Source of the DNA: Candidatus Limnocylindrales bacterium
GTDB taxonomy: Bacteria > Chloroflexota > Limnocylindria > Limnocylindrales > CSP1-4
DNA length: 64,000 bases
NCBI GenBank assembly: GCA_035248345.1
Contig: DATFHO010000101.1
Coordinates: forward strand, 80,407-144,406
Reading direction: 5' to 3'
Position numbers and translations under genes: made by a program. The notes under the pieces are model-generated. The model worked only from the letters and a program-made list of their open reading frames with translations, had not been told where the DNA came from and searched no databases. Shown here piece after piece: positions 5,324 to 49,384 of the stretch (within the stretch, counting starts at the first letter, position 1; every line of letters begins with the position of its first letter).

Positions 5324-7078
<1,755 letters not shown>

Positions 7079-7085
7079 GGCGGGC

Positions 7086-9245: not shown

Positions 9246-9405
9246 GGAGTATTCCGTCCGGCGCCGCCGGCGCCAACGGCTCTCACCGGTGGCCCAGACC
9301 AATTCCCGCAGGTATCGGTCATACGACCGATGACGCTCGCGCCTGCCCGGCGGAGCCTTCACGGAGAAGCGGCAGTGTCGCCGCCACGGTGGAGGCGCAA
9401 TTTCC

Positions 9406-18751: not shown

Positions 18752-19218
18752 GCGCAGGCACCGCAGTCGCTCGGTCCGGCGCCCGGCGCCGTGCCGATGC
18801 GGTCGCCCGATTCGAGGCCCGCGACGGTGACCTGTGGGTCGCGACGGGGGCCGGCGATGGCTCCGTCCATCTCGTGCCGCTGTCGTATGCATGGGACGGC
18901 GAGCACATCCTGATCGCCGTCGCGGTGGATTCGCCGACCGCGCGGAACCTCCAGGCTTCGCGGCGGGCACGGCTCGGGTTCGGACCGACACGCGACGTGG
19001 TCCTTGTCGAGGCGGAGGTCACGCGCAGCTCGCCCGTCCGGCATCCGGATGCCGTCGCGGTCGGTGCGCGATACGCCGCGCAGGCCGACTGGGACCCGCG
19101 CGAGGCGTCCGCTTCCTACCTCTTCGTGCTGCTGCGGCCGGTGCGCATCCAGGCGTGGCGGGAGGCGAACGAGCTCGCCGGGCGGCTGCTGATGCGGGAT
19201 GGCACATGGCTGACGTGA
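18748..19218 (+). CDS. Pyridoxamine 5'-phosphate oxidase-family (PPOX class, possibly F420-dependent) protein
   Basis: TTG start overlapping the upstream stop (TTGA). Split-barrel PPOX-like core (GSVHLVPLSYAWDGEHILIAV). The 3' end overlaps uvrA2 by 13 nt. Confidence 0.55.
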   Translation: MSAGTAVARSGARRRADAVARFEARDGDLWVATGAGDGSVHLVPLSYAWDGEHILIAVAVDSPTARNLQASRRARLGFGPTRDVVLVEAEVTRSSPVRHPDAVAVGARYAAQADWDPREASASYLFVLLRPVRIQAWREANELAGRLLMRDGTWLT

Positions 19219-33608: not shown

Positions 33609-34631
33609 ATGAGCGCGCGGAAGCTCCGCTGGGGCGTGCTCTCGACGGCCGACATCGGTAGGAAGAAGTGGATCCCGGGCGTCCGCCGGGCGCCCGAGCA
33701 GCGCGGCGCGGTCGTGGCGATCGCGTCGCGCGATGCGGCCGTCGCGCGCCAGGTCGCCGATGCGCTCGAGATCCCGCGCGCGCACGGGTCGTACGAGGCG
33801 TTACTTGCCGACCCGGAGGTCGACGCGGTCTACATCCCGCTGCCCAATCACCTCCACCTGGAATGGACGATCGCTGCCGCGCGCGCCGGTAAGCACGTCC
33901 TGTGCGAGAAGCCGCTCGCCCTGTCGTCCGCGGACGCCGAGCGCATGGTCGCCGCCGCGGATGCCGCGGGCGTCAAGCTCATGGAGGCGTTCATGTACCG
34001 CCTCCACCCCTCGTGGCAGGCCGTTCGCCGGCTCGTGACGTCCGGCCGGATCGGGCGGCTCCAGAGCGTCCAGAGCTGGTTCTCGTACTGGAACGACGAC
34101 CCGGCCAACATCCGCAACCGTGCCGACGCCGGCGGCGGCGCGCTCATGGACATCGGCTGCTACTCGATCAACCTCTCGCGGCTGCTCTTCGACGCAGAGC
34201 CGGTGCGCGTGGAGGCATCGATCGTGCGCGATCCCGAGATGGGCATCGACGTCGTGACGTCGGCCTTCCTCGTGTTTCCCGGAGGCGGCACGGCCACCTT
34301 CACGTGCTCGACGCGCGCCGAGACCGACCAGCGCGTCCACATCTACGGCACCGACGGGCGGATCTCGGTGGGGATCCCGTTCAACATCCCGCCGGACCTC
34401 GAGACCCACGTGTTCGTGACGCAGGGCGGTGACCCGCCGGTCGCGCCGCACACGGAGACGCTGACGTTCCCGGTTGCCGATCCGTACGGGGTCGAGGCCG
34501 ACGCCTTCGCCGCCGCCATCCTGGACGGGACGCCGCTCCCGACGCCGGCGTGGGATGGGGTCGCGAACATGCGCGTGATCGAGCAGGTGTTCGAAGCCGC
34601 GGCGCGCGGGGCATCGACGGGCCGGCCGTGA
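33609..34631 (+). CDS. Gfo/Idh/MocA-family NAD(P)-dependent oxidoreductase
   Basis: N-terminal Rossmann LRWGVLSTADIGRKK and the EKP motif HVLCEKPLA. Confidence 0.8.
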   Translation: MSARKLRWGVLSTADIGRKKWIPGVRRAPEQRGAVVAIASRDAAVARQVADALEIPRAHGSYEALLADPEVDAVYIPLPNHLHLEWTIAAARAGKHVLCEKPLALSSADAERMVAAADAAGVKLMEAFMYRLHPSWQAVRRLVTSGRIGRLQSVQSWFSYWNDDPANIRNRADAGGGALMDIGCYSINLSRLLFDAEPVRVEASIVRDPEMGIDVVTSAFLVFPGGGTATFTCSTRAETDQRVHIYGTDGRISVGIPFNIPPDLETHVFVTQGGDPPVAPHTETLTFPVADPYGVEADAFAAAILDGTPLPTPAWDGVANMRVIEQVFEAAARGASTGRP

Positions 34632-36016
34632 GCCGGCACGCGAGCGCGATCGCGCGCCTCGCCGAGATCGACCTCCCGGACTTCGGCGTCGCGGCGGAGC
34701 GGCCCGAGCTCCCCCCGGCGATCCACGAGGCCCGCCTCGAGCGGCTCCGCGAGCGCGCTGCGGCTGCGGGGTTCGACCTCCTCGTCCTGTACGCCGACCG
34801 CGAGCACAGCGCGAACGTCAGCTGGCTCACCGGGTTCGATCCGCGATTCGAGGAGGCCATCGTCATCGTCCGCCCGACGGGCCGGCCGACGATCCTCGTC
34901 GGCAACGAGTGCTGGGGCATCGCGGGCGATGCACCCCTGCCGATGGACCGGGTGCTCCACCAGGACCTCAGCCTGCCGAGCCAGCCGCGAGGCCGTTCGC
35001 GGTCGCTCCGCGACGAGCTGCGCGACGCCGGGGTTGCGCCCGGCACGAAGGTCGGCGTCGTCGGCTGGAAGTCGTTCGGTGATCCCGCGTGGCTGGACGT
35101 CCCCGCCTACCTCGCGGACACGATTCGTGGCCTGGCGGGCGCGACCGGCACGGTTGCCAACGCGGCCGGCCTCCTCATCGATGCCGGAACGGGCCTCCGC
35201 GTCGTGAACGAGCTCGAGCAGCTCGCGGCCTTCGAGGCCGCCTCGACCAGAACCTCCAGCGGCGTCCTGCACCTGCTGCGCAACCTCCGGCCCGGCCTCC
35301 GGGAGCGCGACGCGGTTGCCCTTCTCGGCTGGGACGGCTCCCCGCTGTCGTGCCACCTGATGCTGACTGCAGGCCCCCGTGCCCGGTTCGGGTTGTACAG
35401 CCCGAGCGACCGGGCGATGGAGGCAGGCGACCCGTTCACGACGGCCTTCGGCGTGTGGGGCGCGCTCACCTGCCGGGCCGGATGGCTCGTCGACGACGCG
35501 GCGGCACTGCCCGACGGCATCCGCGATTACGTCGACCGACTCGTCGCGCCGTACTTCGCCGCGATCGCCGCCTGGTACCGCGCACTGCAGGTCGGGCAGA
35601 CGGGCGGCGTCCTCGACGACGTCATCGCGGCGCGCCTCGGTGATCCCTTCTTCGGGATCTTCCTGAACGCCGGCCACCAGATCTCGCTCGACGAGTGGGT
35701 CAACTCCCCGATCGGCCCCGGGTCCACGACCGAGCTGCGGTCCGGCATGTACCTCCAGGCCGACGTGATCCCGGCGACCGGGACGCCCTACTTCACGACG
35801 AACATCGAGGACGGCGTCGCGCTGGCCGACGAATCGCTCCGTGCTGCGTTCCGGGCGCGCTATCCCGAGGCGTGGGCACGGATCGAACGCCGGCGCGCGT
35901 TCATGGCAACGCACCTTGGCATCGAGCTGCACTCGGACGTGCTGCCCTTCTCCAACATCCCCGCCTGGCTGCCGCCGTTCCTGCTGGATACCGGGCGCGC
36001 GATGTCGCTCGCCTGA
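34628..36016 (+). CDS. M24-like (creatinase/prolidase N-terminal + pita-bread) family protein
   Basis: N-terminal domain pattern RLERLRERAAAAGFDLLVLYADREHSANVSWLTGFDP. GTG start overlaps the previous stop (GTGA). Metal ligands were not verified. Confidence 0.55.
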   Translation: MSRHASAIARLAEIDLPDFGVAAERPELPPAIHEARLERLRERAAAAGFDLLVLYADREHSANVSWLTGFDPRFEEAIVIVRPTGRPTILVGNECWGIAGDAPLPMDRVLHQDLSLPSQPRGRSRSLRDELRDAGVAPGTKVGVVGWKSFGDPAWLDVPAYLADTIRGLAGATGTVANAAGLLIDAGTGLRVVNELEQLAAFEAASTRTSSGVLHLLRNLRPGLRERDAVALLGWDGSPLSCHLMLTAGPRARFGLYSPSDRAMEAGDPFTTAFGVWGALTCRAGWLVDDAAALPDGIRDYVDRLVAPYFAAIAAWYRALQVGQTGGVLDDVIAARLGDPFFGIFLNAGHQISLDEWVNSPIGPGSTTELRSGMYLQADVIPATGTPYFTTNIEDGVALADESLRAAFRARYPEAWARIERRRAFMATHLGIELHSDVLPFSNIPAWLPPFLLDTGRAMSLA

Positions 36017-36032: not shown

Positions 36033-37727
36033 ATGGCGCGGGGCAGGAACGGCCGCCCGCTGCTGCTCGGCGCATCGGCGCTGATCCTCGTCGGCGTCAT
36101 CGCTGCCGTGGCCACCGTCGCGGGCATCGCGCCGTGGCTGCCGGGCGCATCCGCGGAGGCCGTCCCGGTCCCGCACTTCGTGGACGAGACGAGCTCCTCC
36201 GGCCTCGCGTTCACCTCGGGCGGCGAGTTCACCTATGCGGTCGGTGGCGGCGTCGCGGTGTTCGACTGCAACGACGACGGCCGCCCGGACATCTACTTCG
36301 CCGGGGGCCAGGATCCGGCCGCGCTGTTCCGCAACGACAGCCCGATCGGTGGCGAGCTCCGGTTCACGCGACTCGCCGGCACGACGACCGACCTTGCGGC
36401 GGTCAACGGCGCCTATCCGATCGACATCGACGGCGACGGCCGCGTCGATCTTGCAGTCCTGCGCAACGGCGAGAACGTCGTCCTGCGGGGGCTGGGCGAC
36501 TGTCGGTTCGAGCGCGCGAACGAGCGGTGGGGTCTCGATGGGGGCGGCGAGCTGACCGAGGCATTCAGCGCGACGTGGGAGCGCGGCGCCACGTGGCCGA
36601 CGCTGGCGTTCGGGAACTACGTCGACCCCGCGCCGGTCGATCCGTCGAAGTGGTGCCAGCCGAACGTGCTGGTCCGCCCGGCGGCCCGCGGCGCGAGGTT
36701 CGCCACGCCGCTCGAGCTCAACCCGAGCTATTGCGCGCTGTCGATGCTCTTCAGCGACTGGGACGGCTCCGGCCGGACGGACCTGCGCGTCAGCAACGAC
36801 CAGCACTACTACCCGCCGACGCTCGGCGAGGAGCAGCTCTGGCGGGTCGAGCCCGGGGTTGCGCCCCGGCTGTACACGAGCAGCGACGGCTGGCAGGCGG
36901 TCCGGATCCAGGGCATGGGCATCGCAAGCCAGGACCTGACCGGTGACGGCCTGCCCGAGATCTACCTCACCAGCCAGGCAGCGAGCCGGCTGCAGACGCT
37001 CGCCAACGGCCCGGCGCAACCCGACTACGCCGACATCGGCGGCGCGCGGAAGGCGAACGTTGCGCAGCCGTTCGCGGGCGGCGAGCACCTGCCGTCGACG
37101 GCGTGGCACCCGCAGTTCGAGGACGTCAACAACGACGGTCGCTTCGACCTCTTCGTCTCGAAGGGCAACGTCACGACCCAGCCCGACTACGCCCAGAAGG
37201 ATCCAAGCAACCTCCTGCTCGGCCTGTCCGACGGCACGTTCCGGGAGGTCGCGGATGTCGCGGGCATCCTCTCGTTCGATCGCGGGCGCGGCGCTGCCCT
37301 CGCCGACTTCAACCTCGACGGCTGGCTCGACCTCGTCGAGGTCAACTACGGCGCACCGGTCCGGATCTGGCGCAGCGCGGGCGCGGTTGCCGCCGGCGGG
37401 AGCGCGGAGGCAGGGCATTGGGTCGGGGTTCGCGTCCGGCAGGCGGCGCCCAATGTCGACGCGATCGGGGCCGTGCTCGAGGTGCGCGTCGGCGGCCCGG
37501 ATGGTTCGGTCGTTCGGCGCGAGCTGACCATCGGGGGCGGGCACGCCGGCGGGCAGCTCGGCTGGGTCCATGTCGGCCTCGGTGACGCGACGAGCGCGGA
37601 GCTCCGCGTCCAGTGGCCCGATGGCACCGAAGGCCCGTGGCAATCGGTCCCGCTCGACACCTTCGCCATCATCGATCGAGATGCGGCCGCCGTGCAGCCC
37701 TGGACGCCGGGGACGCCCCTGCCCTGA
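36033..37727 (+). CDS. CRTAC1-family protein (FG-GAP/VCBS repeats + ASPIC/UnbV C-terminal domain) with N-terminal membrane anchor
   Basis: N-terminal TM (LLLGASALILVGVIAAVATVAGIA). Repeated Dx[DN]xDGxxD Ca-binding loops (CNDDGRPDIY, DIDGDGRVDL, DLTGDGLPEIY, NNDGRFDLF, NLDGWLDLV). C-terminal UnbV_ASPIC-like segment GHWVGVRVRQ...VGLGDATSAELRVQWPDG. Confidence 0.65.
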   Translation: MARGRNGRPLLLGASALILVGVIAAVATVAGIAPWLPGASAEAVPVPHFVDETSSSGLAFTSGGEFTYAVGGGVAVFDCNDDGRPDIYFAGGQDPAALFRNDSPIGGELRFTRLAGTTTDLAAVNGAYPIDIDGDGRVDLAVLRNGENVVLRGLGDCRFERANERWGLDGGGELTEAFSATWERGATWPTLAFGNYVDPAPVDPSKWCQPNVLVRPAARGARFATPLELNPSYCALSMLFSDWDGSGRTDLRVSNDQHYYPPTLGEEQLWRVEPGVAPRLYTSSDGWQAVRIQGMGIASQDLTGDGLPEIYLTSQAASRLQTLANGPAQPDYADIGGARKANVAQPFAGGEHLPSTAWHPQFEDVNNDGRFDLFVSKGNVTTQPDYAQKDPSNLLLGLSDGTFREVADVAGILSFDRGRGAALADFNLDGWLDLVEVNYGAPVRIWRSAGAVAAGGSAEAGHWVGVRVRQAAPNVDAIGAVLEVRVGGPDGSVVRRELTIGGGHAGGQLGWVHVGLGDATSAELRVQWPDGTEGPWQSVPLDTFAIIDRDAAAVQPWTPGTPLP

Positions 37728-37741
37728 CCGTCAGGCGGGCG

Positions 37742-39328
37742 TCAGGCGGGCGGCAGCACCGCGACGAGCAGCCAGCGATCGCCCGTGGCACGCCGAACCG
37801 CGAACACCTTGTCCAGCGGCGACTCCTGCGTGGCGATGACGGCGCCCGTGGCGTCGCGCGTCTGCACGACCTGCGTGCCCGTCATGTGGAAGCCGAGGCT
37901 GAACCCGTCCTGCTTGCCGAACGGGATGAGCAGCGAGACGGCGCCCTTGTCGAAGCGGTAGGTCGTCAGCACGGTCCGACCCGCTGCCTGTGCTGCGACC
38001 AGCCGCTCGTTCATCTCGGCGAGGCGGTCGCCGTGGTCGGACGCCGCGAGGAGCGAGCCGTCCGCGTGGAGCATCGCTTCGTTCTCGATGGCGAGGTTCT
38101 GCGCCAGCGTGATGAGCACGTCGTTGATGCCCGGGCCGGCGAGCGACGGGTCGAAGTCCGCGACGTCCTGCCCGACCGTGATCGGCGGCAGCGTTCCGGG
38201 GTCGACCTGGGTCGGGAGGCGATTCAGGACCTCGGCCGAGACCGGCAGCGTCGCGTTCCGCGCGGGCGTCCCGGCGAGGACCACGCCGCCGCCAACGAGA
38301 ACGACCGCGACCACCGCGGCGATGGCGGCACTCGCCCGACGTGCCGCACCCGCCGCGGCATTGCCGCCGGTGGCGATCCGCTCGACGAAGGCGCGAAGGC
38401 GGTCCGCCGCGGACTTCGGCTCGGGCAGGATCCGCTCGAGGAGCGGTCGGGCCGCGCAGACCACGACGAGGCCGGACAGGAGCCCGACCTTCGCCCCGAA
38501 CTCGGTCGTCTGCGGCGCGATCAGCAGCGTGCTCACGACGCCGACGAGGAGCCCGAACACCACGCGCCCGACGCGCCCGCCGGGCACCGTCTTCGGGTCG
38601 GTGATCATGAAGAACAGGAAGATGAGGATCTCCGGCGACGTCACGATGGAGCGCCAGAAGTCGACACCGCAGACGGGCGCGAACGACCAGCGGGTGACCA
38701 TGCAGTGCCCGGACGCGGCCAGGAGGCCGAGCCCGGCCGCAAGCGTGAGCCAGAACGTGGCCCCGAGGATCAGCAGGTGCAGGCGCCGCGTGATCAGCGT
38801 GCCACCGACCAGGATCACCGCGTACGCCAGGATCATCGCCGGGTTCGTCAGGGGCGCCCACCAGAAGTCCAGCGGCTCCACGCGCGCCGAGCCGAGGATC
38901 ACGAACGCCAGGACCAGCCCGAGGTTGGCCGGGTTGAACACGTGGGAGCCGCGGTACCGGATCACGTACTTCGAGAGCAGCGACAGCGCCGCGACCCCGG
39001 CGAACAGCCACCACGCATAGCTCGTCCAGTGGTCACCCGGCGCCGTGCCGACCACCCGCATGATCAGCGCCACGGCGCTGCCGGTGAGCATCGCGCTCGC
39101 GGGCCAGACGAGCTGCTTCGTCTGCCAGAACGTGATCCCGACCTCCAGGACGAAGCACGTGCCGATCGCGGCAACGATCTGCGGCACGCTCACCCAGAAC
39201 CCGAGCCCGACCTGGCCGAGCACATGGACGGTCAGGACGACCACCGCGACGTGCAGCCGCGGGTCGCGGACGTTCGGGAGGACGAGCGGGTACGTCCCGC
39301 GGCCGATCGTGAGCGTCCTCGCGGTCAT
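37742..39328 (-). CDS. RnfD/NqrB-family-like polytopic membrane protein with an additional ~190-aa C-terminal domain
   Basis: GSHVFNPANLGLVLAFVILG parallels the RnfD (QNPFNPAMIGYVVLL) motif. FFMITDPKT parallels FFILTDPVT. The canonical flavinylation site SGAT is replaced by VTSP. After the last TM (AAIAAVVAVVLVGGGVVLAG) there is a soluble extension. Confidence 0.5.
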   Translation of the reverse strand: MTARTLTIGRGTYPLVLPNVRDPRLHVAVVVLTVHVLGQVGLGFWVSVPQIVAAIGTCFVLEVGITFWQTKQLVWPASAMLTGSAVALIMRVVGTAPGDHWTSYAWWLFAGVAALSLLSKYVIRYRGSHVFNPANLGLVLAFVILGSARVEPLDFWWAPLTNPAMILAYAVILVGGTLITRRLHLLILGATFWLTLAAGLGLLAASGHCMVTRWSFAPVCGVDFWRSIVTSPEILIFLFFMITDPKTVPGGRVGRVVFGLLVGVVSTLLIAPQTTEFGAKVGLLSGLVVVCAARPLLERILPEPKSAADRLRAFVERIATGGNAAAGAARRASAAIAAVVAVVLVGGGVVLAGTPARNATLPVSAEVLNRLPTQVDPGTLPPITVGQDVADFDPSLAGPGINDVLITLAQNLAIENEAMLHADGSLLAASDHGDRLAEMNERLVAAQAAGRTVLTTYRFDKGAVSLLIPFGKQDGFSLGFHMTGTQVVQTRDATGAVIATQESPLDKVFAVRRATGDRWLLVAVLPPA

Positions 39329-39347
39329 GGTCGGGCATCATAGGTGC

Positions 39348-39974
39348 ATGGCACGAGACGAAGAACGAGTCGCGCGGGCGCAGCAGGACCCTATCGTCGG
39401 CGGGTTGCCCGATGTCCAGGGCATCGGCGTGGCAATGCGCCTGACGCCCGGTCTCGGCGTGCACCTCCGCGGCCTCGCGGACGAGGTGCTCGTCCACGAC
39501 TTCCCGGGCGCCACGCTCCGCCGTGACCAGCGCGAGATCCTGGCGACGGCGGTCTCTGCCGCGAACGACTGCTTCTTCTGCATGGACTCGCACGGCGCGT
39601 TCGTGGCCGCGCTCCTGGACAAGCACGGCGCGCACGAGCTCATGCCGCTGATCGACGTCGCGAAGGCGGGGTCATCGGACGGGTTCGATCCGAAGATGCA
39701 GGCGCTCCTGCACATCGCGCGGACGGTTCGGCGCGATGCGCTCGCGCTCACGGAGGGTGACGTCACGGCGGCGCACGAGGCGGGCGCCACCGAGGCGGAC
39801 GTGCAGCTCGCCGTGCTCATCGCGTCCGCGTTCTCCATGTACAACCGGCTCGTCGACGGGTTCCGCGCCCGCACCTCGCCGTCGACGGAGGCGTACCGGG
39901 AGCGCGCCGCCGAGATCGCCGACAACGGCTACAGCGCACCGTCCGGCCTCACGGCCGCACCGACGCGAGGCTGA
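39348..39974 (+). CDS. Carboxymuconolactone-decarboxylase (AhpD-like, peroxidase-related) family protein
   Basis: AhpD-core motif CFFCMDSHG, about 208 aa. Divergent from the RnfD-like gene with only ~19 bp between the start codons. Confidence 0.7.
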   Translation: MARDEERVARAQQDPIVGGLPDVQGIGVAMRLTPGLGVHLRGLADEVLVHDFPGATLRRDQREILATAVSAANDCFFCMDSHGAFVAALLDKHGAHELMPLIDVAKAGSSDGFDPKMQALLHIARTVRRDALALTEGDVTAAHEAGATEADVQLAVLIASAFSMYNRLVDGFRARTSPSTEAYRERAAEIADNGYSAPSGLTAAPTRG

Positions 39975-40063: not shown

Positions 40064-40420
40064 ATGAACCCATCGACTCGCCCGACCACCACGCGGGAGC
40101 GCGACCGCGCGCTGCAGCGCCTCCGTTCGATCACCGCCGGGATCGCCGTCCTCGGAACGGCCGCCACCGCCGGCTTCGGAGCGCTTGCGGCGGTCACGTG
40201 GTCCGGCTCCGCCGGTACCGCGGGCGATGACACCGCGGCTGCTGCCGATCCCACCGCGAACGCCTGGTTCACCAATGCCGATGAGGACTCGGATCTCCTG
40301 ACGGGCGCCGAGCAGTCGACCCCGGCACCCAGCGAAGCGGCCGCGCCGATCCAGCCGAATCCCACCCCGCTCGCAACGACGCGGAAGAAGCCCAGGGTCA
40401 CCAGCGGCGGTTCCGGGTGA
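40064..40420 (+). CDS. Small single-pass membrane protein with Ala/Thr/Pro-rich extracytoplasmic tail
   Basis: 118 aa. TM ITAGIAVLGTAATAGFGALAAV, then a low-complexity tail. Its stop overlaps the apbE GTG start (GTGA), suggesting translational coupling. Confidence 0.35.
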   Translation: MNPSTRPTTTRERDRALQRLRSITAGIAVLGTAATAGFGALAAVTWSGSAGTAGDDTAAAADPTANAWFTNADEDSDLLTGAEQSTPAPSEAAAPIQPNPTPLATTRKKPRVTSGGSG

Positions 40421-41382
40421 TCCGCTGGCGGGCGCTCGGGACGCACGTCGACCTGCTCGTCCATCGGGGCGATCACCGCGCCGCTCGCGCCGCTGTCGAG
40501 GCGGTGCTGGAGCGCGTCGATCGCACCTACAGCCGCTTTCGACCCGACAGCGAGCTCGTGGTGCTCAATGCCCGCGCCGGCACGACCGTCTCACTGAGCC
40601 CGCTGCTCGCCGACGCCCTCGGGGCGGCGATCCAGGCAGCGGGCCAGACGGATGGGCTGTGCGACCCGACGATCGGGCGCGCCCTGCTGCGGATCGGCTA
40701 CGACGCGGACTTCGCGACGGTCGCGACGGGCACCGCCGCCATCGAGCTGCGCATGGAGCGCGTCGCCGGCTGGCAGTCGCTTCGCTTCGACCCGGTCGCG
40801 CGCACGATCCGCGTCCCCGCCGGCGTGGAGCTGGACCTCGGCTCGACCGGCAAGGCGCTGGCCGCTGACCTCGCCGCGACTGCCGCCGCGGAGGCAATGG
40901 GTCGCGGTGGCGTGCTGGTGAGCCTCGGCGGTGACCTCGCGATCGCCGGTGACGTGCCCGAGGACGGCTGGCCGGTTCTCGCGGCGGACGACAGCAGCAT
41001 CGAGCCGCGGCGCGGTGGCGAGGTGATCGCCGTTCGCGGCGGCGCGATCGCGACATCGAGCACCACCGTGCGCACCTGGCGACGCGCGTCCGTTGTCGTG
41101 CATCACCTCATCGACCCGCGAACCGGGCTTCCTGCGCGAAGCCCATGGCGAACCGTGTCCGTGGCCGCGGCCACCTGTGTCGATGCCAACGCCGCCGCGA
41201 CCGCCGGGCTGATCCGCGGCGCGGACGCGCCTGCGTGGCTCGACGGCCTCGGGCTCGCTGCGCGGCTCGTCTCCACCGACGGCGACGTCATCCGCGTCGG
41301 TGGCTGGCCCGTGCCGGAGCCGGCGCGGGAGCGGGACCGATCTCGCGAGCACGACCCGGCCCGCGCAGGAGCGGCGGCATGA
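40417..41382 (+). CDS. apbE: ApbE-family FAD:protein FMN transferase
   Basis: 321 aa. ApbE hallmarks: SRFRPDSEL, the FAD-binding segment LDLGSTGKALAADL, and SLGGDLAIAG. Confidence 0.8.
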   Translation: MIRWRALGTHVDLLVHRGDHRAARAAVEAVLERVDRTYSRFRPDSELVVLNARAGTTVSLSPLLADALGAAIQAAGQTDGLCDPTIGRALLRIGYDADFATVATGTAAIELRMERVAGWQSLRFDPVARTIRVPAGVELDLGSTGKALAADLAATAAAEAMGRGGVLVSLGGDLAIAGDVPEDGWPVLAADDSSIEPRRGGEVIAVRGGAIATSSTTVRTWRRASVVVHHLIDPRTGLPARSPWRTVSVAAATCVDANAAATAGLIRGADAPAWLDGLGLAARLVSTDGDVIRVGGWPVPEPARERDRSREHDPARAGAAA

Positions 41383-41981
41383 GCACGCAGGTGCTGTGGT
41401 TCGCGACCCGGGGCTCGGGCATCGTCTCGATGCTCCTCTTCAGCCTCGTCGTCGTCCTCGGCATCCTCACGACGATGCGCTGGCAGTCCGCCGGTTGGCC
41501 GCGCTTCCTGACCGTCGAGCTCCACCGGACGACCTCGCTCCTGTCGGTGGCGTTCATCGTCGCCCACATCCTCACGTCGATCCTCGATCCGTTCGCGAAG
41601 CTCGGTATCGACGCGGCGCTGATCCCCTTTGCCTCGTCGTATCGACCGCTGTGGGTCGGCCTCGGCGTCCTGTCGATGGACATCGGGATCGCGGTCCTCG
41701 TCACGAGCCTGCTCAAGGCCCGGATCGGGCAGCGGGCCTGGCGCCTCGTCCACTGGCTCGCCTACGCGTCATGGCCGCTCGCGATCCTCCACACGATCGG
41801 GTCCGGGTCGGACAACGGCGCGCCGTGGATGTTCGCGCTCGACGTCGTGTGCATCGGCTCCGTCTGCCTCGCGCTCATCTGGCGGATCCTCGCGGCCCGC
41901 GGGCCGAACACCGACGCCCTCGAGGCCGTCGCAGGAGGCGTCCAGCGCGTCCAGCGCGTCCACCGCTCGACGCCGCGATGA
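41379..41981 (+). CDS. Ferric-reductase-like transmembrane domain (FRD/MsrQ-type, putative di-heme b) membrane protein
   Basis: ~200 aa, about 6 TM helices (my estimate). Conserved His residues in TM helices (ELHRTT, VAHILTS, LVHWLAY, ILHTIGS). ATG overlaps the apbE stop (ATGA). Confidence 0.6.
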   Translation: MSTQVLWFATRGSGIVSMLLFSLVVVLGILTTMRWQSAGWPRFLTVELHRTTSLLSVAFIVAHILTSILDPFAKLGIDAALIPFASSYRPLWVGLGVLSMDIGIAVLVTSLLKARIGQRAWRLVHWLAYASWPLAILHTIGSGSDNGAPWMFALDVVCIGSVCLALIWRILAARGPNTDALEAVAGGVQRVQRVHRSTPR

Positions 41982-43243
41982 ACGGCGCGCGGGTTCTCGC
42001 CGGGCCACCGCTCGCATCCGGAGCCGAACCGTTCGAGGACCACCGGGCACGCCTGGGGCCATTGCCCCGTGGCGGGCGGTCCGCCGTCATCCACGAGCTG
42101 GAGCAGAGCGGGCTCCTCGGCCGCGGTGGCGCCGGGTTCCCGGTCGGCCGCAAGTGGCGGTCCGTCGCCGAACGCTCGGATGGCCGCGGGGCGGTCGTGC
42201 TGGTCAACGGCGCCGAGGGCGAGCCGCTCTCGCACAAGGACCGCACCCTCCTCGCCCTCCGGCCCCACCTCGTCCTCGACGGCGCCCAGCTGGCGGCGGA
42301 CGCCGTCGGCGCGGACGAGGTCATCCTGTACGTGGGTGAGGCACACGACGGCGCCGTGGAGGCGCTCCAGCGTGCCGGCGCGGAGCGCATCGCGGCGCGC
42401 GCCGGGTTCCCCGTGCCGGTTCGGATCTCGCGCGCGCCGGATCGGTACGTCGCCGGCGAAGAATCGGCGGCCGTCCACTTCGTGAATGCCGGTGATGCGC
42501 GCCCCATCACCACGCCGCCGCGACCGTACGAGCGGGGTGTCGCGGGCCTGCCCACGCTGGTCCAGAACGTGGAGAGCCTCGCGCACGCGGCCCTCATCGC
42601 GCGCAGGGGCGCCGCCTGGTACCGCGAGGCCGGCCGGGGCGAGACGCGCGGCACGGCGGTCATCACGGTGACGGCCCCGGGCGGACGGCCTCGCGTTCGC
42701 GAGATCGAGCTTGGACAGACGATCGGTGAGGTCGCGGCCACGGACGTCGCCGGCGAGGCGGCGCCGAGGCTGGAAACGACGCAGGCGGTCCTCCTGGGCG
42801 GCTATTTCGGGCGATGGGTCGGCGCCGAGCGCGCATGGGACCTGCAGCTCGATCCCGCGCAGCTGCGCGCCGACGGCCTCGCGCTCGGGGCCGGCATCGT
42901 CGCCTTTCTGTCGAACGCCACGTGTCCCATCATCGCCACAGCCCGCATCGCGGAGTACATGGCGGCGCAGAGCGCGGCCCAATGCGGGCCGTGCGTCTTC
43001 GGGCTGCGCTCGATCGCCGACGCGATGGGCCGGCTGGCGCGGCTCGAAGCGCATCGAGACGACTGGGACAACGTCGAACGGTGGGCGGCGCAGGTCAGGA
43101 ATCGGGGCGCCTGCCGCCATCCCGACGGCGCCGTGGGCATGCTCGAGAGCGCCCTCATGACGTTCGACGGCGAGCTCGAGCGGCACTGGCGCACGAAGCG
43201 CTGCGCATTCGCGGCGATCGCGGGATCCGGCAAGGCGGCGTGA
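41978..43243 (+). CDS. NuoF-like (NADH-dehydrogenase 51-kDa-type) FMN/Fe-S flavoprotein
   Basis: SGLLGRGGAGFPVGRKW is the NuoF FMN-site glycine loop. C-terminal Cys motif CPIIATARIAEYMAAQSAAQCGPCVFG. ATGA overlap with the FRD gene. Confidence 0.65.
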   Translation: MNGARVLAGPPLASGAEPFEDHRARLGPLPRGGRSAVIHELEQSGLLGRGGAGFPVGRKWRSVAERSDGRGAVVLVNGAEGEPLSHKDRTLLALRPHLVLDGAQLAADAVGADEVILYVGEAHDGAVEALQRAGAERIAARAGFPVPVRISRAPDRYVAGEESAAVHFVNAGDARPITTPPRPYERGVAGLPTLVQNVESLAHAALIARRGAAWYREAGRGETRGTAVITVTAPGGRPRVREIELGQTIGEVAATDVAGEAAPRLETTQAVLLGGYFGRWVGAERAWDLQLDPAQLRADGLALGAGIVAFLSNATCPIIATARIAEYMAAQSAAQCGPCVFGLRSIADAMGRLARLEAHRDDWDNVERWAAQVRNRGACRHPDGAVGMLESALMTFDGELERHWRTKRCAFAAIAGSGKAA

Positions 43244-43488
43244 TGGCGACGGAGATCGCCCCTGCCCACGGCAGGCCACTGGCGAAGGCGGAGACGCGCC
43301 TCGAGGTCGATCGCATCCTGTGCGACGGATATGGCATGTGCGCCGAGCTCCTCCCGGAGCTCATCGAGCTCGATGATTGGGGCTATCCGATCGTCCACTC
43401 CCTGGTGCCGCGACGGCTCGAGGGGGTTGCCCGGAAGGCCGTCGAGGTCTGTCCGGTCCTTGCCCTGCGACTCCGCACGGGACGCTGA
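43243..43488 (+). CDS. Small ferredoxin (CxxYxxC...CP, 3Fe-4S/4Fe-4S single-cluster type)
   Basis: 81 aa. CDGYGMCAELLPE...VEVCPV. TGATG overlap with the NuoF-like gene. Confidence 0.65.
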   Translation: MATEIAPAHGRPLAKAETRLEVDRILCDGYGMCAELLPELIELDDWGYPIVHSLVPRRLEGVARKAVEVCPVLALRLRTGR

Positions 43489-43527
43489 GCGAGGCGCGAA
43501 TCGCGCGTCCTTGGCACGATTCCCGCC

Positions 43528-44925
43528 ATGACGACAACGACGAGCGCGCTCCAGGACCAGCTCCAGCGCCTGCGGGCCGAGATCAGCGGCCGGGTCATCG
43601 AACCTGCCGACCCGGACTACGACACGCTCCGCTCCGTGATGTACGGCGGGGTCGATCGGCATCCCGCCGCTGTCGTTCGCGTGGCGAACGTCGACGATGT
43701 TCGCGCCGTGATCGCCTTCGCCCGGGAAACCGGCGCGCAGCTCGCGATCCGCAGCGGCGGGCACAGCGCCAAGGGCGACAGCACGACCGAGGGCGGCATC
43801 GTCCTCGACCTGAGGGAACTCCGTGCGATCGACATCGACGTCGACGCGCGGACGGGCTGGTTCGAGACCGGCCTCACGGCCGCCGACGTGTCCCAGGCGG
43901 CTGCAGCGCATGGCCTCGCGATCGGCTTCGGCGACACCGGCTCGGTCGGCATCGGCGGGATCACGACAGGCGGCGGCATCGGCTATCTCGTGCGCAAGCA
44001 CGGCATGACGATCGACAACGTCCTGGCCGCGGACGTCGTGACGGCCGACGGCCAGCTCCTGCGAGCCGACGCGTCCACGAACCCGGACCTGTTCTGGGCG
44101 ATCCGTGGTGGCGGTGGCAACTTCGGCGTCGTCGTGCGCGTGCAGTACCGCCTCGTGGAGCTGCCCGGGATCGTGGGCGGCATGCTCTTCCTGCCGGCAA
44201 CCGCGGAGACGGTCGAGCGGTTCATCGCGCTGGCAGGCGAGGCACCGGAGGAGCTCTCGACGATCGCCAACGTGATGCCCTGCCCGCCGATGCCGATGGT
44301 GGACGCGGCGTGGCACGGCAAGCTCGTGATCTTCGGGCTCATGTGCTACGCCGGGCCGGCCGAGGAGGGCGCCAATGCGCTCCAGCCGTTCCGCGACCTT
44401 GCGAAGCTCGCTGGGCTCGACGCGCCGATCGCGGACCTGGTGAAGCCGATGACCTACCCGGAGATGTTCCCGCCCGAGGACCCCGACTACCACCCGCTCG
44501 CGGTGAGCCTGAACCTCATGCTCGATCGCGTCGATCGCGGGACCGCGGAGACGATCATGTCGTTCCTCGAGTCATCGGACGCCTCGCTTCGCGCTGCCCA
44601 GATCCGGGTGCTCGGCGGCGCGATGGCGCGCGTGCCGGTCGACGCCACCGCGTATGCCCATCGGGCCAGCCCGATCATGGTCAACATCGCCGTCTTCTAC
44701 ACGGACGAGGAGGACCGCAAGCGCCGGCTCGCCTGGGCGACGGACTTCTTCAACGCGATCCGCCAGGGCGACGAGGGCGCGTACGTCGGCTTCGTCGGTG
44801 ACGAGGGCGAGGCGCGCATCCACGCCGCGTACCCGGGCGCCACCTACCAGCACCTCGCCGAGGTCAAGCGCCGCTATGACCCGACGAACCTGTTCCGCCT
44901 GAACCAGAACATCCCGCCCGCCTGA
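43528..44925 (+). CDS. FAD-linked oxidase (PCMH-type FAD-binding domain + BBE-like C-terminus)
   Basis: AIRSGGHSAKGDS, GIGGITTGGGIGYLVRKHGMTIDNV, RGGGGNFGVV, and a C-terminal KRRYDPTNLFRLNQNIPP BBE motif. Confidence 0.8.
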   Translation: MTTTTSALQDQLQRLRAEISGRVIEPADPDYDTLRSVMYGGVDRHPAAVVRVANVDDVRAVIAFARETGAQLAIRSGGHSAKGDSTTEGGIVLDLRELRAIDIDVDARTGWFETGLTAADVSQAAAAHGLAIGFGDTGSVGIGGITTGGGIGYLVRKHGMTIDNVLAADVVTADGQLLRADASTNPDLFWAIRGGGGNFGVVVRVQYRLVELPGIVGGMLFLPATAETVERFIALAGEAPEELSTIANVMPCPPMPMVDAAWHGKLVIFGLMCYAGPAEEGANALQPFRDLAKLAGLDAPIADLVKPMTYPEMFPPEDPDYHPLAVSLNLMLDRVDRGTAETIMSFLESSDASLRAAQIRVLGGAMARVPVDATAYAHRASPIMVNIAVFYTDEEDRKRRLAWATDFFNAIRQGDEGAYVGFVGDEGEARIHAAYPGATYQHLAEVKRRYDPTNLFRLNQNIPPA

Positions 44926-45280: not shown

Positions 45281-46015
45281 TCAGCGCCAGTCGATCGTGA
45301 CCACCTCGACCGGCTCGGAGAACCCCTTCAGCAGCTCGCTGCGGGGTGCCGACGTCGGGTAGGCATCGCCCGCCGTCGCGACGCTCGCGACGATCTCGTT
45401 GCCGCCGGCGATCGAGGCGATCCGCGATGCCTCGTGGACGCCACGGCCGCGGAAGTTCTCGCCGACCTGGTTCGCGTCCGCGGCGTGGATCCCGATCCTG
45501 ATGGGCGGCGCGAAGCCTGCCTTCTGGCGGTGCTCGGCGAGCCGGCGCTGGATCGCCACGGCTGCCGCCACCGCCTGCTCCGGCGAGTCGAAGCCGACGA
45601 AGAAGCCGTCGCCGGTCGTCGAGATCTCCTTGCCCTGATGCGCGGTGAAGACCTCCCGGAGCGTGGCGTCGTGCCAGCGCAGCAGCGTGTCCCACGCTTC
45701 GTCGCCCATCACCTCGACCAGGTTGGTGGAACCGACGACGTCCGTGAACATGAAGGTCTTGAGGACGCGGCGCTTGGGCTCGGCCTTGCCACGGAGCTGC
45801 CACGGCAGGAGCTCGGCGACATCCTCGATCCAGATCGCCGCGGTCGGGCACGCGAAGGCAGCCTCGCGAACGAGCTCGTCCTCCACGCTGTCCGGATCGA
45901 CGACGTCGGCCTTCGCGAAGTCACCTCGGAGCCAGTCGAACGCCGTGGGCGCGATCGTGATGCAGTTGCCGGCACCGATGCATTTGTGCCGGTCGACGCC
46001 GACGCGCAGCGGCAT
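45281..46015 (-). CDS. Ferredoxin-like domain fused to class III adenylate/guanylate cyclase catalytic domain
   Basis: N-terminal VDRHKCIGAGNCITIAPTAFDW...AFACPTAAI is a CxxAxxC...CP cluster motif. C-terminal CHD: FMFTDVVGSTNL...TTGDGFFVGF...IRIGIHAADA...GRGVHEASRI. The start codon (46013-46015) overlaps the stop of the LAL regulator (46015-46017) by 1 nt. Confidence 0.7.
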   Translation of the reverse strand: MPLRVGVDRHKCIGAGNCITIAPTAFDWLRGDFAKADVVDPDSVEDELVREAAFACPTAAIWIEDVAELLPWQLRGKAEPKRRVLKTFMFTDVVGSTNLVEVMGDEAWDTLLRWHDATLREVFTAHQGKEISTTGDGFFVGFDSPEQAVAAAVAIQRRLAEHRQKAGFAPPIRIGIHAADANQVGENFRGRGVHEASRIASIAGGNEIVASVATAGDAYPTSAPRSELLKGFSEPVEVVTIDWR

Positions 46016-49374: not shown

Positions 49375-49384
49375 CGGGCCGATT

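What the first reader, a model, noticed from the sequence alone, without database searches (positions are those of the whole stretch)
37742..39974. Orphan RnfD/NqrB-like membrane protein with degenerate flavinylation site and extra C-terminal domain, divergently paired (about 19 bp) with an AhpD-like protein and about 1 kb upstream of the ApbE operon
The N-terminal ~330 aa match the NQR2/RnfD/RnfE fold motifs (…VFNPANLG…, …FFMITDPKT…). However, the Thr-bearing SGAT flavin-attachment motif reads VTSP. The protein also carries a ~190-aa soluble extension after a final TM helix, and no other Rnf/Nqr subunits (A, B, C, E, G) are nearby.

RnfD/NqrB normally never occurs alone. A solitary copy with a new C-terminal domain sitting beside ApbE suggests recruitment into a different complex, or a flavinylation site relocated into the new domain. 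The near-zero spacing to the divergent CMD/AhpD-like gene implies overlapping promoters and possibly a redox-stress link.
Basis: partly seen in the sequence, partly recalled or inferred. Interest (0 to 1): 0.62.

Follow-up and report, generated by a model that had tools for sequence, protein, structure and literature searches.

The report
Flavin-less RnfD-like membrane protein, UnbU type
The gene is an intact member of a large, uncharacterised family of stand-alone membrane proteins that share the fold of the respiratory subunit RnfD but have lost its flavin attachment site. Its real partners appear to be the neighbouring beta-propeller protein and a small redox protein, not the ApbE operon 1 kb away.

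Summary
A 528-aa ORF (37742..39328, minus strand) has an RnfD/NqrB-like membrane core, one extra helix and a ~175-aa C-terminal domain. It lies 19 bp divergent from an AhpD/CMD gene and about 1.1 kb from ApbE, and no other rnf/nqr genes are in the window.

The interpretation needs correcting on four points.
- **Flavin site.** 'VTSP' aligns to the wrong SGAT. The true site (E. coli RsxD D181..T187-PLD) aligns to L145..E151-PLD after a 46-residue deletion. No ApbE motif exists anywhere in the protein.
- **ApbE link.** The ApbE cluster is nearby in only 2 of 83 related loci, and it matches a published MsrQ-like/NuoF-like flavinylation system.
- **C-terminal domain.** It is a family hallmark with an NTF2/Tim44-like fold, and it faces outward.
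- **Partners.** One is the convergent FG-GAP/UnbV (CRTAC1-type) gene, which is fused to this protein in both orders in many bacteria. The other is the AhpD-like CxxC gene, within 1.5 kb in 60 of 83 loci. In a distant clade its second Cys is a TGA codon, probably selenocysteine.

The pair resembles the enediyne cassette pair UnbU/UnbV (E5/E4), but no PKS is present. I read it as the membrane link of a peroxide- or redox-related envelope module. The mechanism is inferred, not shown.

The parts
37742..39328 (-). UnbU-like gene, 528 aa: a flavin-less RnfD/NqrB-fold membrane protein with a C-terminal ectodomain (the stop codon is 37742-37744).
   Evidence: ORF. 3458 homologues, the top 120 full-length. 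AlphaFold model with pLDDT 78.8. Foldseek hits to RnfD. hhalign against RsxD.
38363..39328 (-). Membrane core, residues 1-322, with 10 helices and the N-terminus inside. Near-invariant residues across the family: D22, R24, Q39, W75-P76, S78, R91, K120, N132-P133, N135, W156-W157, H208, S231-P232-E233, D244-P245, E276, K280.
   Evidence: Helices from the model. Lys+Arg count is 15 in even-numbered loops against 2 in odd-numbered loops. Conservation measured over 92 diverse members at 38-71% identity.
38867..38896 (-). Remnant of the RnfD flavinylation loop, residues 145-154 (L-G-S-A-R-V-E-P-L-D). E151 sits where the FMN-bearing Thr of RsxD (T187) lies, and the loop faces outward.
   Evidence: hhalign. 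Position 151 is Glu or Asp in 78 of 92 members, and P152, W156 and W157 are above 95% conserved.
38594..38644 (-). It aligns to the second, non-flavinylated SGAT of RsxD and the shared TDP motif.
   Evidence: hhalign register. S231, P232, E233 and D244 are 100% conserved in the family.
38273..38347 (-). Eleventh TM helix (residues 328-352). It carries the chain from an Arg/Lys-rich cytoplasmic linker to the outside.
   Evidence: Model helix 328-352. Loop 293-327 has 6 Lys+Arg.
37745..38266 (-). C-terminal ectodomain, residues 355-528: three helices plus a four-stranded sheet, an NTF2/Tim44-like fold. It has no conserved polar residues, so it is probably a docking or binding module.
   Evidence: Block-mean pLDDT is mostly 79-96 over residues ~380-528. 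Foldseek hits to the Tim44 C-terminal domain, mL45 and the ARC6 intermembrane-space domain. Present in 70 of 150 representatives and in the fusions. Conservation.
39348..39974 (+). AhpD/CMD-family gene (208 aa, no signal peptide or TM segment seen by eye) with CxxC at C75/C78 (39570..39581). It is the divergent partner.
   Evidence: Pfam CMD at 35.9 bits, TIGR01926 at 57.5 bits. PDB relatives are 'peroxidase-related' AhpD-core proteins. Synteny in 60 of 83 loci. A TGA replaces C78 in a distant clade.
36033..37727 (+). FG-GAP beta-propeller plus UnbV_ASPIC protein (CRTAC1/UnbV type) with an N-terminal membrane anchor. It is convergent, with its stop 14 bp from the target's stop.
   Evidence: Pfam FG-GAP_3 and UnbV_ASPIC. 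Matches human CRTAC1 9etn. Within 5 kb in 23 of 83 loci, including the Acidimicrobiia. Fused to the RnfD-like domain in both orders.
33609..36016 (+). GFO/IDH/MocA oxidoreductase (33609..34631) and a creatinase/prolidase-N-like protein (about 34640..36016). They are frequently co-located with the module, but membership is uncertain.
   Evidence: Pfam. GFO within 10 kb in 15 of 83 loci and the M24-like gene within 5 kb in 14 of 83. GFO lies directly upstream of the fused gene in 14 of 59 metagenome loci.

Best explanation
The gene encodes a stand-alone, flavin-less member of the NqrB/RnfD fold superfamily. It is of the type paired with UnbV-like proteins, and it resembles the enediyne cassette protein UnbU/E5. 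It is not a subunit of an Rnf or Nqr complex and not a substrate of the ApbE encoded nearby.

The protein has ten core helices with the N-terminus inside. The long outward loop that carries the FMN-threonine in RnfD is cut down to a short Trp-rich loop with an acidic residue at the Thr position. An eleventh helix places an NTF2/Tim44-like domain outside the membrane.

It works as the membrane part of a three-part module:
- Outside, the anchored CRTAC1/UnbV beta-propeller encoded convergently next door. The ectodomain probably docks it.
- In the membrane, this protein.
- In the cytoplasm, the divergently encoded AhpD-like CxxC protein.

Inferred mechanism: the conserved polar residues on the broken helices (FNPxN, SPE, TDP, E276/K280, H208) form a path through the membrane. 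That path would couple chemistry at the beta-propeller to thiol (elsewhere probably selenol) peroxidase-type chemistry inside. It would carry either a small oxidised solute such as a peroxide, or reducing equivalents through a non-covalent cofactor.

Shown: fold, topology, loss of the flavin site, gene fusions, synteny. Inferred: physical docking, what crosses the membrane, and the substrate.
For: Fold and homology:
- Foldseek hits to RnfD.
- hhalign Prob 92%.
- Some relatives pass the Pfam cutoff.

No flavin site:
- Alignment of T187 to E151.
- No [ST]G[AS][ST] motif anywhere in the protein.

Topology:
- Positive-inside count of 15 against 2.
- N-terminal fusions insert an extra TM helix plus an Arg/Lys-rich linker, as expected if the core starts inside.

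UnbV partner:
- Adjacent in the window.
- Within 5 kb in 23 of 83 loci.
- Natural fusions of RnfD-like, NTF2-like, FG-GAP and UnbV_ASPIC domains in both orders, with 80 full-length fused loci in metagenomes.

AhpD partner:
- Within 1.5 kb in 60 of 83 loci, in five arrangements.
- Within 900 bp of the fused gene in 15 of 74 loci of a distant clade.
- There, TGA replaces the second Cys, followed by a conserved hairpin with a GGUC loop.

Peroxide or redox theme in independent contexts:
- An anchored AhpC/TSA redoxin in an operon with a 265-aa relative in Metabacillus.
- A haloperoxidase-like DUF6851/VCPO_2nd domain fused or directly downstream in 10 of 44 loci.
- A cytochrome c peroxidase next to a 46%-identical CRTAC1 gene in Phaeobacter.

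Family size:
- At least 530 species genomes.
- 1701 clusters at 50% identity.
Against: - No experiment exists for any member.
- The identity of UnbU/E5 with this family rests on one JGI label (P0014) and on the UnbV pairing. I could not obtain a bona fide E5 sequence.
- No conserved Cys or His motif for a redox cofactor is present. Only H208 is at least 90% conserved, and C209/C220 are at 51%. An electron-wire role therefore has no visible cofactor site.
- Fourteen of 83 loci show neither AhpD nor UnbV nearby.
- Much of the synteny comes from one class (Limnocylindria), so shared ancestry inflates the counts.
- Sugar-related neighbours (ROK, xylF-like, GFO) fit a transport reading as well.
- The model has low confidence (pLDDT below 50) at residues 146-157, exactly the remnant loop.
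Confidence: 0.5

Rival explanations
1. It is a plain transporter or channel for a small, possibly sugar-derived solute. It would use the AmtB/urea-transporter-like architecture of the NqrB fold and have no redox role. The AhpD link would be incidental or regulatory.
For: - No cofactor motif, and conserved polar residues on discontinuous helices.
- An Rh-protein chain appears among the Foldseek hits (rank 38).
- Recurrent ROK, xylF-like, sugar ABC transporter, GFO and FGGY neighbours.
- NCBI assigns the GO term 'transmembrane transport' to the Metabacillus relative.
Against: - It does not explain the conserved pairing with a Cys/Sec redox protein across two distant clades.
- It does not explain the repeated association with peroxide-handling domains.
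- It does not explain fusion to a large extracytoplasmic propeller.
Confidence: 0.2
2. It is a membrane-embedded enzyme acting on a hydrophobic substrate. One candidate is a desaturase- or acetylenase-like oxidase, as once proposed for CalU15 (which I equate with UnbU from memory). The NTF2-like domain would hold the lipid or polyene.
For: - The literature proposal for CalU15, explicitly unproven (PMC8341276).
- Conserved carboxylates and His (D22, H208, E233, D244, E276; H26 at 82%, H129 at 76%) could bind a metal.
- NTF2/Tim44-like domains often have hydrophobic pockets; the yeast Tim44 domain was solved with Cymal-3 (3qk9).
Against: - No His-box motifs of di-iron desaturases are present.
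- The fold is RnfD-like, not desaturase-like.
- The ectodomain has no conserved polar residues.
- No PKS or lipid-pathway genes are in the window. The largest ORF is 1215 aa and hits only AAA_16.
Confidence: 0.1
3. It is merely a membrane anchor or scaffold that holds the UnbV-type propeller at the cell surface, with the RnfD-like core being functionally inert.
For: Fusions in both orders and a non-catalytic-looking ectodomain.
Against: About 25 positions inside the membrane core are at least 95% conserved across members sharing only 38-71% identity. That is far more than an anchor needs. The UnbV protein in the window also has its own anchor helix.
Confidence: 0.1
4. One reading: a solitary RnfD recruited by the neighbouring ApbE, with a flavinylation site moved into the new C-terminal domain.
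For: ApbE lies 1.1 kb away. The outward-facing C-terminal domain would be accessible to ApbE.
Against: - No ApbE motif anywhere in the protein.
- The ApbE cluster is near the gene in only 2 of 83 loci.
- The ApbE operon matches an independent published system type.
Confidence: 0.03
5. It is a decaying remnant of an rnf/nqr operon.
For: The Pfam score is below the family threshold and no partner subunits are present.
Against: The ORF is intact and aligns full-length with hundreds of homologues. Mean column identity is 72% over 46 sequences. The family has its own invariant motifs and at least 530 carrier species.
Confidence: 0.01

Closest known systems
RnfD / NqrB (subunit D of the Rnf complex, subunit B of Na+-NQR; Pfam PF03116)
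   Same: Same ten-helix core fold (Foldseek). Shared motifs S-A-x-L-T-G, K120, FNPA, P-L-D, GG and F-F-x-x-T-D-P. The loop equivalent to the flavinylation loop faces outward.
   Different: - The FMN-bearing Thr and the whole D-x-x-S-x-A-T motif are lost, and 46 residues of that loop are deleted.
- No RnfA/B/C/E/G or NqrA/C/D/E/F genes are nearby in the window or in 163 related loci.
- It has an extra TM helix and an NTF2-like ectodomain.
- It has its own invariant residues (D22/R24, R91, H208, SPE, E276/K280).
- Its Pfam score is below the gathering threshold.
UnbU/E5 and UnbV/E4 of the enediyne 'warhead' cassette (SgcE5/SgcE4, CalU15/CalU14)
   Same: A polytopic membrane protein paired with a secreted FG-GAP/UnbV_ASPIC protein. 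JGI labels one 75%-identical homologue 'enediyne biosynthesis protein E5'. The function of E4/E5 is also unknown (PMC8341276).
   Different: There is no enediyne PKS, thioesterase or UnbL in the window. The context is instead AhpD-like, GFO/IDH/MocA and sugar-uptake genes. From memory, E5 proteins are about 330-390 aa and would lack the ectodomain. Direct sequence comparison with a real E5 could not be made.
NQR/RNF-like systems of Meheust et al. 2021 (solitary NqrB/RnfD-like domain fused to an NqrF-type NAD-binding domain, in ApbE clusters)
   Same: An RnfD-like membrane domain working outside Rnf/Nqr with a fused C-terminal domain.
   Different: The C-terminal domain here is extracytoplasmic and NTF2-like, not a cytosolic PF00175 NAD-binding domain. 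There is no flavinylation motif and no conserved ApbE link.
Tim44 C-terminal domain, mitoribosomal mL45, and the ARC6/PARC6 intermembrane-space domain (membrane-proximal NTF2-like folds)
   Same: The fold of residues ~380-528: three helices packed on a curved sheet, with Foldseek E about 3e-3 to 3e-2. All of these sit at a membrane surface and bind membrane or partner peptides.
   Different: There is no sequence similarity (no Pfam hit). The domain is bacterial, extracytoplasmic and tethered to an RnfD-like core.
AhpD-like 'peroxidase-related enzyme' (TIGR01926) and AhpD-related (seleno)proteins (NF041238)
   Same: The partner gene 39348..39974 has the CMD fold and a CxxC at the canonical place. 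Distant orthologues next to fused UnbU-UnbV genes read C-x-F-TGA-T. One of them scores 87.7 bits on TIGR01926, above the cutoff of 81.8.
   Different: The window protein scores 57.5 bits, below that cutoff. No AhpC-type peroxiredoxin partner is encoded nearby in the window.

Membership tests
RnfD/NqrB (PF03116) | Sequence score at or above the Pfam gathering threshold (27.7 bits) | tested here: not met
   20.9 bits, E 2.6e-4. NCBIfam rnfD at 17.8 bits against a cutoff of 207. Distant homology is nevertheless supported, and some relatives pass the threshold: 34.8, 40.9 and 63.2 bits.
RnfD/NqrB (PF03116) | Ten-helix RnfD/NqrB core fold | tested here: met
   Foldseek: 8rbq_D E 3.4e-6 with TMt 0.61; 9eri_D, 8ahx_D and 7zc6_D also hit. 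NqrB chains are weaker. The model has a mean pLDDT of 78.8.
RnfD/NqrB (PF03116) | ApbE flavinylation motif D-x-x-[ST]-G-A-[ST] with the FMN-bearing Thr in the outward loop | tested here: not met
   RsxD D181..T187 aligns with L145-G-S-A-R-V-E151. No [ST]G[AS][ST] occurs in the whole protein.
RnfD/NqrB (PF03116) | Encoded with the other Rnf or Nqr subunits | tested here: not met
   tblastn with RsxA/B/C/D/G against the window finds nothing but the NuoF-like ORF. Against 163 related loci there is a single RsxC-like hit. The rest of the genome could not be searched.
UnbU/E5 of enediyne cassettes | Polytopic membrane protein encoded beside, or fused with, an UnbV_ASPIC protein | tested here: met
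   The convergent neighbour 36033..37727 has FG-GAP_3 plus UnbV_ASPIC. Fusions in both orders.
UnbU/E5 of enediyne cassettes | Located in a cassette with the enediyne PKS (about 1900 aa), its thioesterase and UnbL | tested here: not met
   The largest ORF in the window is 1215 aa and hits only AAA_16. No PKS domains were found in the large ORFs.
UnbU/E5 of enediyne cassettes | Significant sequence similarity to an experimentally anchored E5 (SgcE5, CalU15, DynU15) | not testable with these tools
   No E5 sequence could be retrieved. The plasmid search found none and the papers hold no sequences. The only support is the JGI name on P0014.
NQR/RNF-like system (Meheust 2021) | RnfD-like N-terminal domain plus a cytosolic NqrF-type NAD-binding domain (PF00175), inside a flavinylation gene cluster | tested here: not met
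   No PF00175 hit. The C-terminal domain is NTF2-like and faces outward. ApbE proximity is not conserved. The definition is taken from PMC8238504.
Tim44-like / NTF2-like domain (C-terminal domain) | Alpha+beta cone fold: helices followed by a curved antiparallel sheet | tested here: met
   Secondary structure H400-449 plus four strands at 452-525. Foldseek hits to 2cw9, 3qk9, mL45 and ARC6.
Tim44-like / NTF2-like domain (C-terminal domain) | Sequence match to a curated Tim44 or NTF2-type family | tested here: not met
   No Pfam or NCBIfam hit on residues 355-528. The homologue search with the domain alone returned only fragments of the same family.
AhpD/CMD family (partner gene 39348..39974) | CMD domain with a redox CxxC | tested here: met
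   PF02627 at 35.9 bits against a cutoff of 23. C75-F-F-C78 is present. The same position is TGA in 11 distant orthologues.
MsrQ-like flavinylation system (neighbouring operon 40417..43243, not the target) | apbE plus a PF01794 membrane protein, with a NuoF-like or NAD-binding partner and an FMN-binding-domain protein | tested here: inconclusive
   ApbE, Ferric_reduct and NuoF-like proteins are present, matching the 31 NuoF-type clusters of PMC8238504. No FMN_bind gene and no canonical motif were found. The only candidate substrate is the 118-aa protein ending in TSGGSG.

The most novel reading that the evidence does not exclude
The AhpD-like (Cys/Sec) protein, the UnbU-like membrane protein and the UnbV propeller would form a previously unrecognised, widespread envelope system. 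Its chemistry would be peroxide-dependent and possibly halide-dependent, given the optional fused haloperoxidase-like domain. The flavin-free RnfD-fold protein would be the conduit across the membrane.

The enediyne E4/E5 pair would then be a specialised offshoot of this system. That would give a mechanistic lead for the unexplained oxidative and iodination steps attributed to the enediyne cassette. I take those steps from the title of Gui et al. 2024 (seen) and from memory of its abstract.
Probability: 0.15. Interest if true: 0.8.

Novelty: new variant of a known kind. Interest (0 to 1): 0.45.

Why it matters
RnfD and NqrB are known only as flavin-carrying subunits of ion-pumping redox complexes. 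This is a branch of that fold present in at least 530 species genomes and 1701 sequence clusters. It has dropped the flavin site, gained an outward NTF2-like domain, and is repeatedly fused to CRTAC1/UnbV propellers.

Databases label its members 'RnfD subunit', which is misleading for metabolic reconstruction of abundant soil and freshwater Chloroflexota and Actinomycetota.

If the family includes the enediyne protein E5, the fold assignment, topology and partner set give concrete handles on a cassette whose E4/E5 steps were still unassigned in the one review I could read (PMC8341276). Those handles include the AhpD-like Cys/Sec protein and the haloperoxidase-like domain.

Tried and rejected
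- **Direct PDB sequence search** with the protein found nothing. With the family profile it found only a 40-residue RnfD stretch.
- **Homologue search with the C-terminal domain alone** returned mostly truncated fragments of the same family and no new architecture.
- **Literature searches** for UnbU, UnbV, SgcE5, TnmE5 and similar, and for enediyne together with RnfD, found no paper discussing the fold or function of E5 beyond one unproven proposal. Gui et al. 2024 and Backiel et al. 2008 are not held.
- **tblastn of the membrane domain against plasmids**, run to catch a plasmid-borne enediyne cluster, found only a Metabacillus relative.
- **Context look-ups of short family representatives** (337-393 aa), as candidate E5-like proteins, failed. 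They sit on short or truncated contigs.
- **All-against-all clustering of stop-to-stop ORFs** from 84 loci was unusable, because overlapping frames in 70% GC DNA merged into one cluster. I replaced it with targeted tblastn panels.
- **The sigma-70 promoter and terminator scan** of the divergent intergenic region found nothing, and nothing in the shuffles either, so it is uninformative for this organism.
- **My first guess that 'SGHC' (206-209) replaces SGAT** was rejected by hhalign.
- **A thiol relay through the membrane protein** was rejected, because its cysteines are only 51-79% conserved.
- **A wrong-frame ORF in L142** gave a false 'no CMD' result, corrected.


Full report
**What is at the coordinates**

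The window is about 70% GC. Its closest relatives are Candidatus Limnocylindrales (Chloroflexota) genome bins, with 84-91% protein identity (L004, L005).

The span 37742..39974 holds two divergent genes:
- A 528-aa ORF on the minus strand (37742..39328).
- A 208-aa ORF on the plus strand (39348..39974), 19 bp away.

The 528-aa protein hits Pfam NQR2_RnfD_RnfE over residues 31-270, but only at 20.9 bits, below the curated 27.7. NCBIfam RnfD, NqrB and RsxD models score 15-18 bits against cutoffs above 200. The plus-strand gene is a CMD/AhpD-family protein (35.9 bits) with a C-F-F-C motif.

Downstream lie:
- a 118-aa ORF with no family;
- ApbE (40417..41382);
- a Ferric_reduct (MsrQ-like) membrane protein;
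- a NuoF-like protein.

Upstream and convergent, with 14 bp between the stop codons, lies a FG-GAP plus UnbV_ASPIC protein.

**Is it really RnfD-like, and is it alive?**

It is intact and under strong constraint.
- A search of 5.8 billion proteins gave 3458 hits. The best 120 are all 525-549 aa, with about 100% coverage.
- An alignment of 46 of them has 72% mean column identity.
- A scan of one genome per species found at least 530 carriers.
- An exhaustive HMMER search with the membrane part found 1701 clusters at 50% identity.

The AlphaFold model (pLDDT 78.8) matches RnfD chains of four solved Rnf complexes (best E 3.4e-6, TM 0.61 normalised on RnfD). It matches NqrB more weakly. Profile-profile alignment with an E. 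coli RsxD alignment gives 92% probability and E 6e-7.

So the fold claim holds, the pseudogene alternative is excluded, and the relationship is distant.

**The flavin site**

The ApbE motif is D-x-x-[S/T]-G-A-[S/T] (PMC12052999). In E. coli RsxD it reads D181-G-I-S-Q-A-T187, followed by P-L-D. From my own knowledge, T187 is also the residue shown to carry FMN in Vibrio cholerae RnfD (Backiel 2008). That paper is not held.

hhalign places this stretch opposite L145-G-S-A-R-V-E151-P-L-D of the target, after a 46-residue gap. Every motif position is lost and Thr is replaced by Glu. Across 92 diverse family members this position is Glu or Asp in 78.

That one sits inside the helix before FFILTDP and has no Asp three residues before its Ser, the position the motif's Asp would occupy. 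No [ST]G[AS][ST] occurs anywhere in the target, including the C-terminal domain.

The conclusion 'no usable flavinylation site' is therefore right, but for a different residue. The idea of a relocated site finds no support.

**Topology and the extra domain**

Using the model's helices, Lys+Arg total 15 in the even-numbered loops and 2 in the odd-numbered ones. This gives three placements:
- The N-terminus is inside.
- The remnant loop 147-162 is outside, as expected for a former ApbE target.
- The eleventh helix (328-352) carries the C-terminal domain outside.

That domain (three helices plus a four-stranded sheet, block-mean pLDDT mostly 79-96 over residues ~380-528) matches the Tim44 C-terminal domain, mitoribosomal mL45 and the ARC6/PARC6 intermembrane-space domain. 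These are NTF2-like folds that sit on membranes and bind partners.

It is not an oddity of this gene. An HMM built from close relatives detects it in 70 of 150 family representatives. Across 39 diverse copies no polar residue is conserved, which points to docking rather than catalysis.

**Who are the partners?**

I compared 83 related loci from genomes.

| Neighbour | Distance criterion | Loci out of 83 |
|---|---|---|
| AhpD-like gene | within 1.5 kb | 60 |
| UnbV-like gene | within 5 kb | 23 |
| Either of the two | as above | 69 |
| ApbE cluster | within 10 kb | 2 |

- The 60 AhpD-like cases fall into five arrangements: divergent and adjacent 29; same strand directly downstream 15; downstream after one gene 12; same strand directly upstream 2; upstream on the opposite strand after one gene 2.
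- The UnbV-like cases include the Acidimicrobiia loci, which lack the AhpD gene.
- The two ApbE cases are the two nearest relatives.

The decisive evidence for UnbV is gene fusion. Many representatives are 900-1550 aa and combine the RnfD-like domain, the NTF2-like domain, FG-GAP repeats and UnbV_ASPIC. The propeller comes either after the core (P0198, P0214, P0231, P0180, P0221) or before it (P0178, P0176).

When the propeller comes first, an extra TM helix and an Arg/Lys-rich linker are inserted. That is exactly what the N-in topology requires. A metagenome scan returned 80 full-length fused loci.

**The AhpD link in an independent clade, and a probable selenocysteine**

Next to the fused genes an AhpD-like gene lies within 900 bp in 15 of 74 loci with enough flank. 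In 11 of the 18 loci where a Sec-type query finds an AhpD-like hit, the codon matching the window's second Cys (C78) is an in-frame stop; it is TGA in the six inspected. The motifs are N-Q-C-P-F-TGA-T and N-R-C-E-F-TGA-T, against N-D-C-F-F-C-M in the window. The reading frame is conserved on both sides.

Fourteen nucleotides after the TGA lies an invariant hairpin, CGGCGC-GGUC-GCGUCG. From my own knowledge, its GGUC loop is that of the E. coli fdhF SECIS element.

With U read as C, one of these proteins passes the TIGR01926 'peroxidase-related enzyme' cutoff (87.7 against 81.8 bits). A Cys/Sec pair marks a catalytic redox residue.

**A recurring peroxide and sugar theme**

- A 265-aa relative on a Metabacillus plasmid shares the D-P-R, GSH.FNPSN and FFMITDPKT.P motifs. 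It overlaps by 4 bp a membrane-anchored AhpC/TSA redoxin with C-Q-A-C.
- In 10 of 44 fused loci a DUF6851/VCPO_2nd domain (vanadium-haloperoxidase-like) is fused or directly downstream.
- The window's UnbV protein is 46% identical to a Phaeobacter 'CRTAC1 family protein'. That gene sits between a ROK regulator, xylFGH and a cytochrome c peroxidase.
- GFO/IDH/MocA oxidoreductases, ROK and xylF-like genes recur around both the split and the fused forms.

**How it most likely works**

Shown: a flavin-less RnfD-fold core, N-in topology, an outward NTF2-like domain, and genetic coupling to an outward CRTAC1/UnbV propeller and to an AhpD-like Cys/Sec protein with no apparent signal peptide or TM segment.

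Inferred:
- The ectodomain docks the propeller.
- The near-invariant polar residues in the core (D22, R24, Q39, S78, R91, K120, N132, N135, H208, S231-P-E233, D244, E276, K280) line a path across the membrane.
- That path links chemistry outside to peroxidase-type thiol or selenol chemistry inside.

Whether a small oxidised solute or electrons pass is open. Cysteines in the core are only 51-79% conserved, so a DsbD-like thiol relay is unlikely, and no cofactor motif is visible. I put 0.5 on the module assignment and considerably less on any specific cargo.

**Comparison with known systems**

- It is not a member of Rnf/Nqr. The fold is met, but the flavin motif, the operon context and the family score are not.
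- It differs from the NQR/RNF-like solitary proteins of Meheust et al., which carry a cytosolic NAD-binding domain.
- It works like, and may belong with, the UnbU/UnbV (E5/E4) pair of the enediyne cassette. One homologue carries that JGI name. However, there is no PKS in the window, and I could not obtain a real E5 sequence to test.
- E5-type proteins remain functionally unassigned. CalU15 was only proposed to be an acetylenase (PMC8341276).
- No paper in the library connects enediyne proteins with RnfD.

The ApbE operon next door is a separate matter. It matches the published MsrQ-like system with a NuoF-like partner, of which 31 clusters are known.

**Verdict**

- The ApbE-centred interpretation is not supported.
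- The AhpD link is supported.
- The gene is a typical member of a large uncharacterised variant of the RnfD/NqrB fold.
- Interest is moderate (0.45). It is not a singular oddity, but the family, its fusions and its probable selenoprotein partner are undescribed and experimentally approachable.

Noticed in passing
window 40064..40420 (+); orthologues in L004 and L005: A 118-aa protein has one TM helix, a variable Ala/Thr/Pro-rich linker and a C-terminal tail ...K-x-R-V-T-S-G-G-S-G*. The tail is identical in three orthologues that are otherwise only 53-81% identical. Its stop codon overlaps the ApbE start (GTGA). The operon has no FMN_bind gene, so this tail resembles a minimal ApbE tag ([ST]-G-A-[ST] with Ala changed to Gly) and could be the real ApbE substrate.
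   Followed up: partly
L123, L124, L135, L141, L142, L155 (AhpD-like gene next to fused UnbU-UnbV genes): An in-frame TGA sits exactly at the second Cys of the CxxC motif (C-x-F-TGA-T). The frame is conserved on both sides, and an invariant hairpin with a GGUC loop lies 14 nt downstream. This is a probable selenoprotein form of the window's AhpD-like partner.
   Followed up: partly
P0180 / L088 8001..12659; L167 10001..14212; 10 of 44 fused loci: Four-part fusion proteins of 1400-1550 aa combine an RnfD-like core, an NTF2-like domain, a FG-GAP/UnbV propeller and DUF6851/VCPO_2nd. The last is a vanadium-haloperoxidase-like domain of the PAP2 superfamily.
   Followed up: partly
L086 8399..9786 (Metabacillus sp. 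B2-18 plasmid pB218): A 265-aa minimal relative of the family, annotated 'Rnf subunit D', overlaps by 4 bp a membrane-anchored AhpC/TSA redoxin (C-Q-A-C). No other rnf genes are present, and a mer operon and a glutaredoxin gene lie nearby.
   Followed up: partly
window 40417..44925: ApbE, a MsrQ-like (Ferric_reduct) protein and a NuoF-like protein are followed by a small ferredoxin-like ORF (by eye, not tested) and an FAD_binding_4/BBE-type oxidase (43528..44925). The same set recurs in L004. This matches the rare NuoF-type MsrQ-like flavinylation clusters of Meheust et al. 2021.
   Followed up: partly
L091 (Phaeobacter inhibens DSM 17395 plasmid pPGA1_262, record 48880..50436): A CRTAC1 family protein 46% identical to the window's UnbV-like protein sits between a ROK regulator with xylFGH and a cytochrome c peroxidase with an aldose epimerase. 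tblastn detected no UnbU-like gene on that plasmid.
   Followed up: no
P0139 (197 aa, 130-kb contig), P0163 (128 aa, 510-kb contig), P0130 (356 aa): The C-terminal NTF2-like domain appears as short separate ORFs on long contigs. These could be split genes, frameshifts or genuine stand-alone ectodomain proteins.
   Followed up: no
L009 8573..9874 (-) and 11526..12752 (-): In the arrangement where the AhpD-like gene lies about 1.2 kb downstream, the intervening gene is on the opposite strand and has no Pfam hit. A cytochrome P450-like ORF (by eye, not tested) lies divergently upstream of the target homologue.
   Followed up: no
window 18834..21578 (+) and 46015..49662 (-): Two large ORFs: a 914-aa ABC-ATPase/nSTAND-like protein and a 1214-aa AAA_16 protein. 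A 1097-aa ORF at 6240..9533 has no Pfam hit and may be a spurious frame in GC-rich DNA.
   Followed up: no
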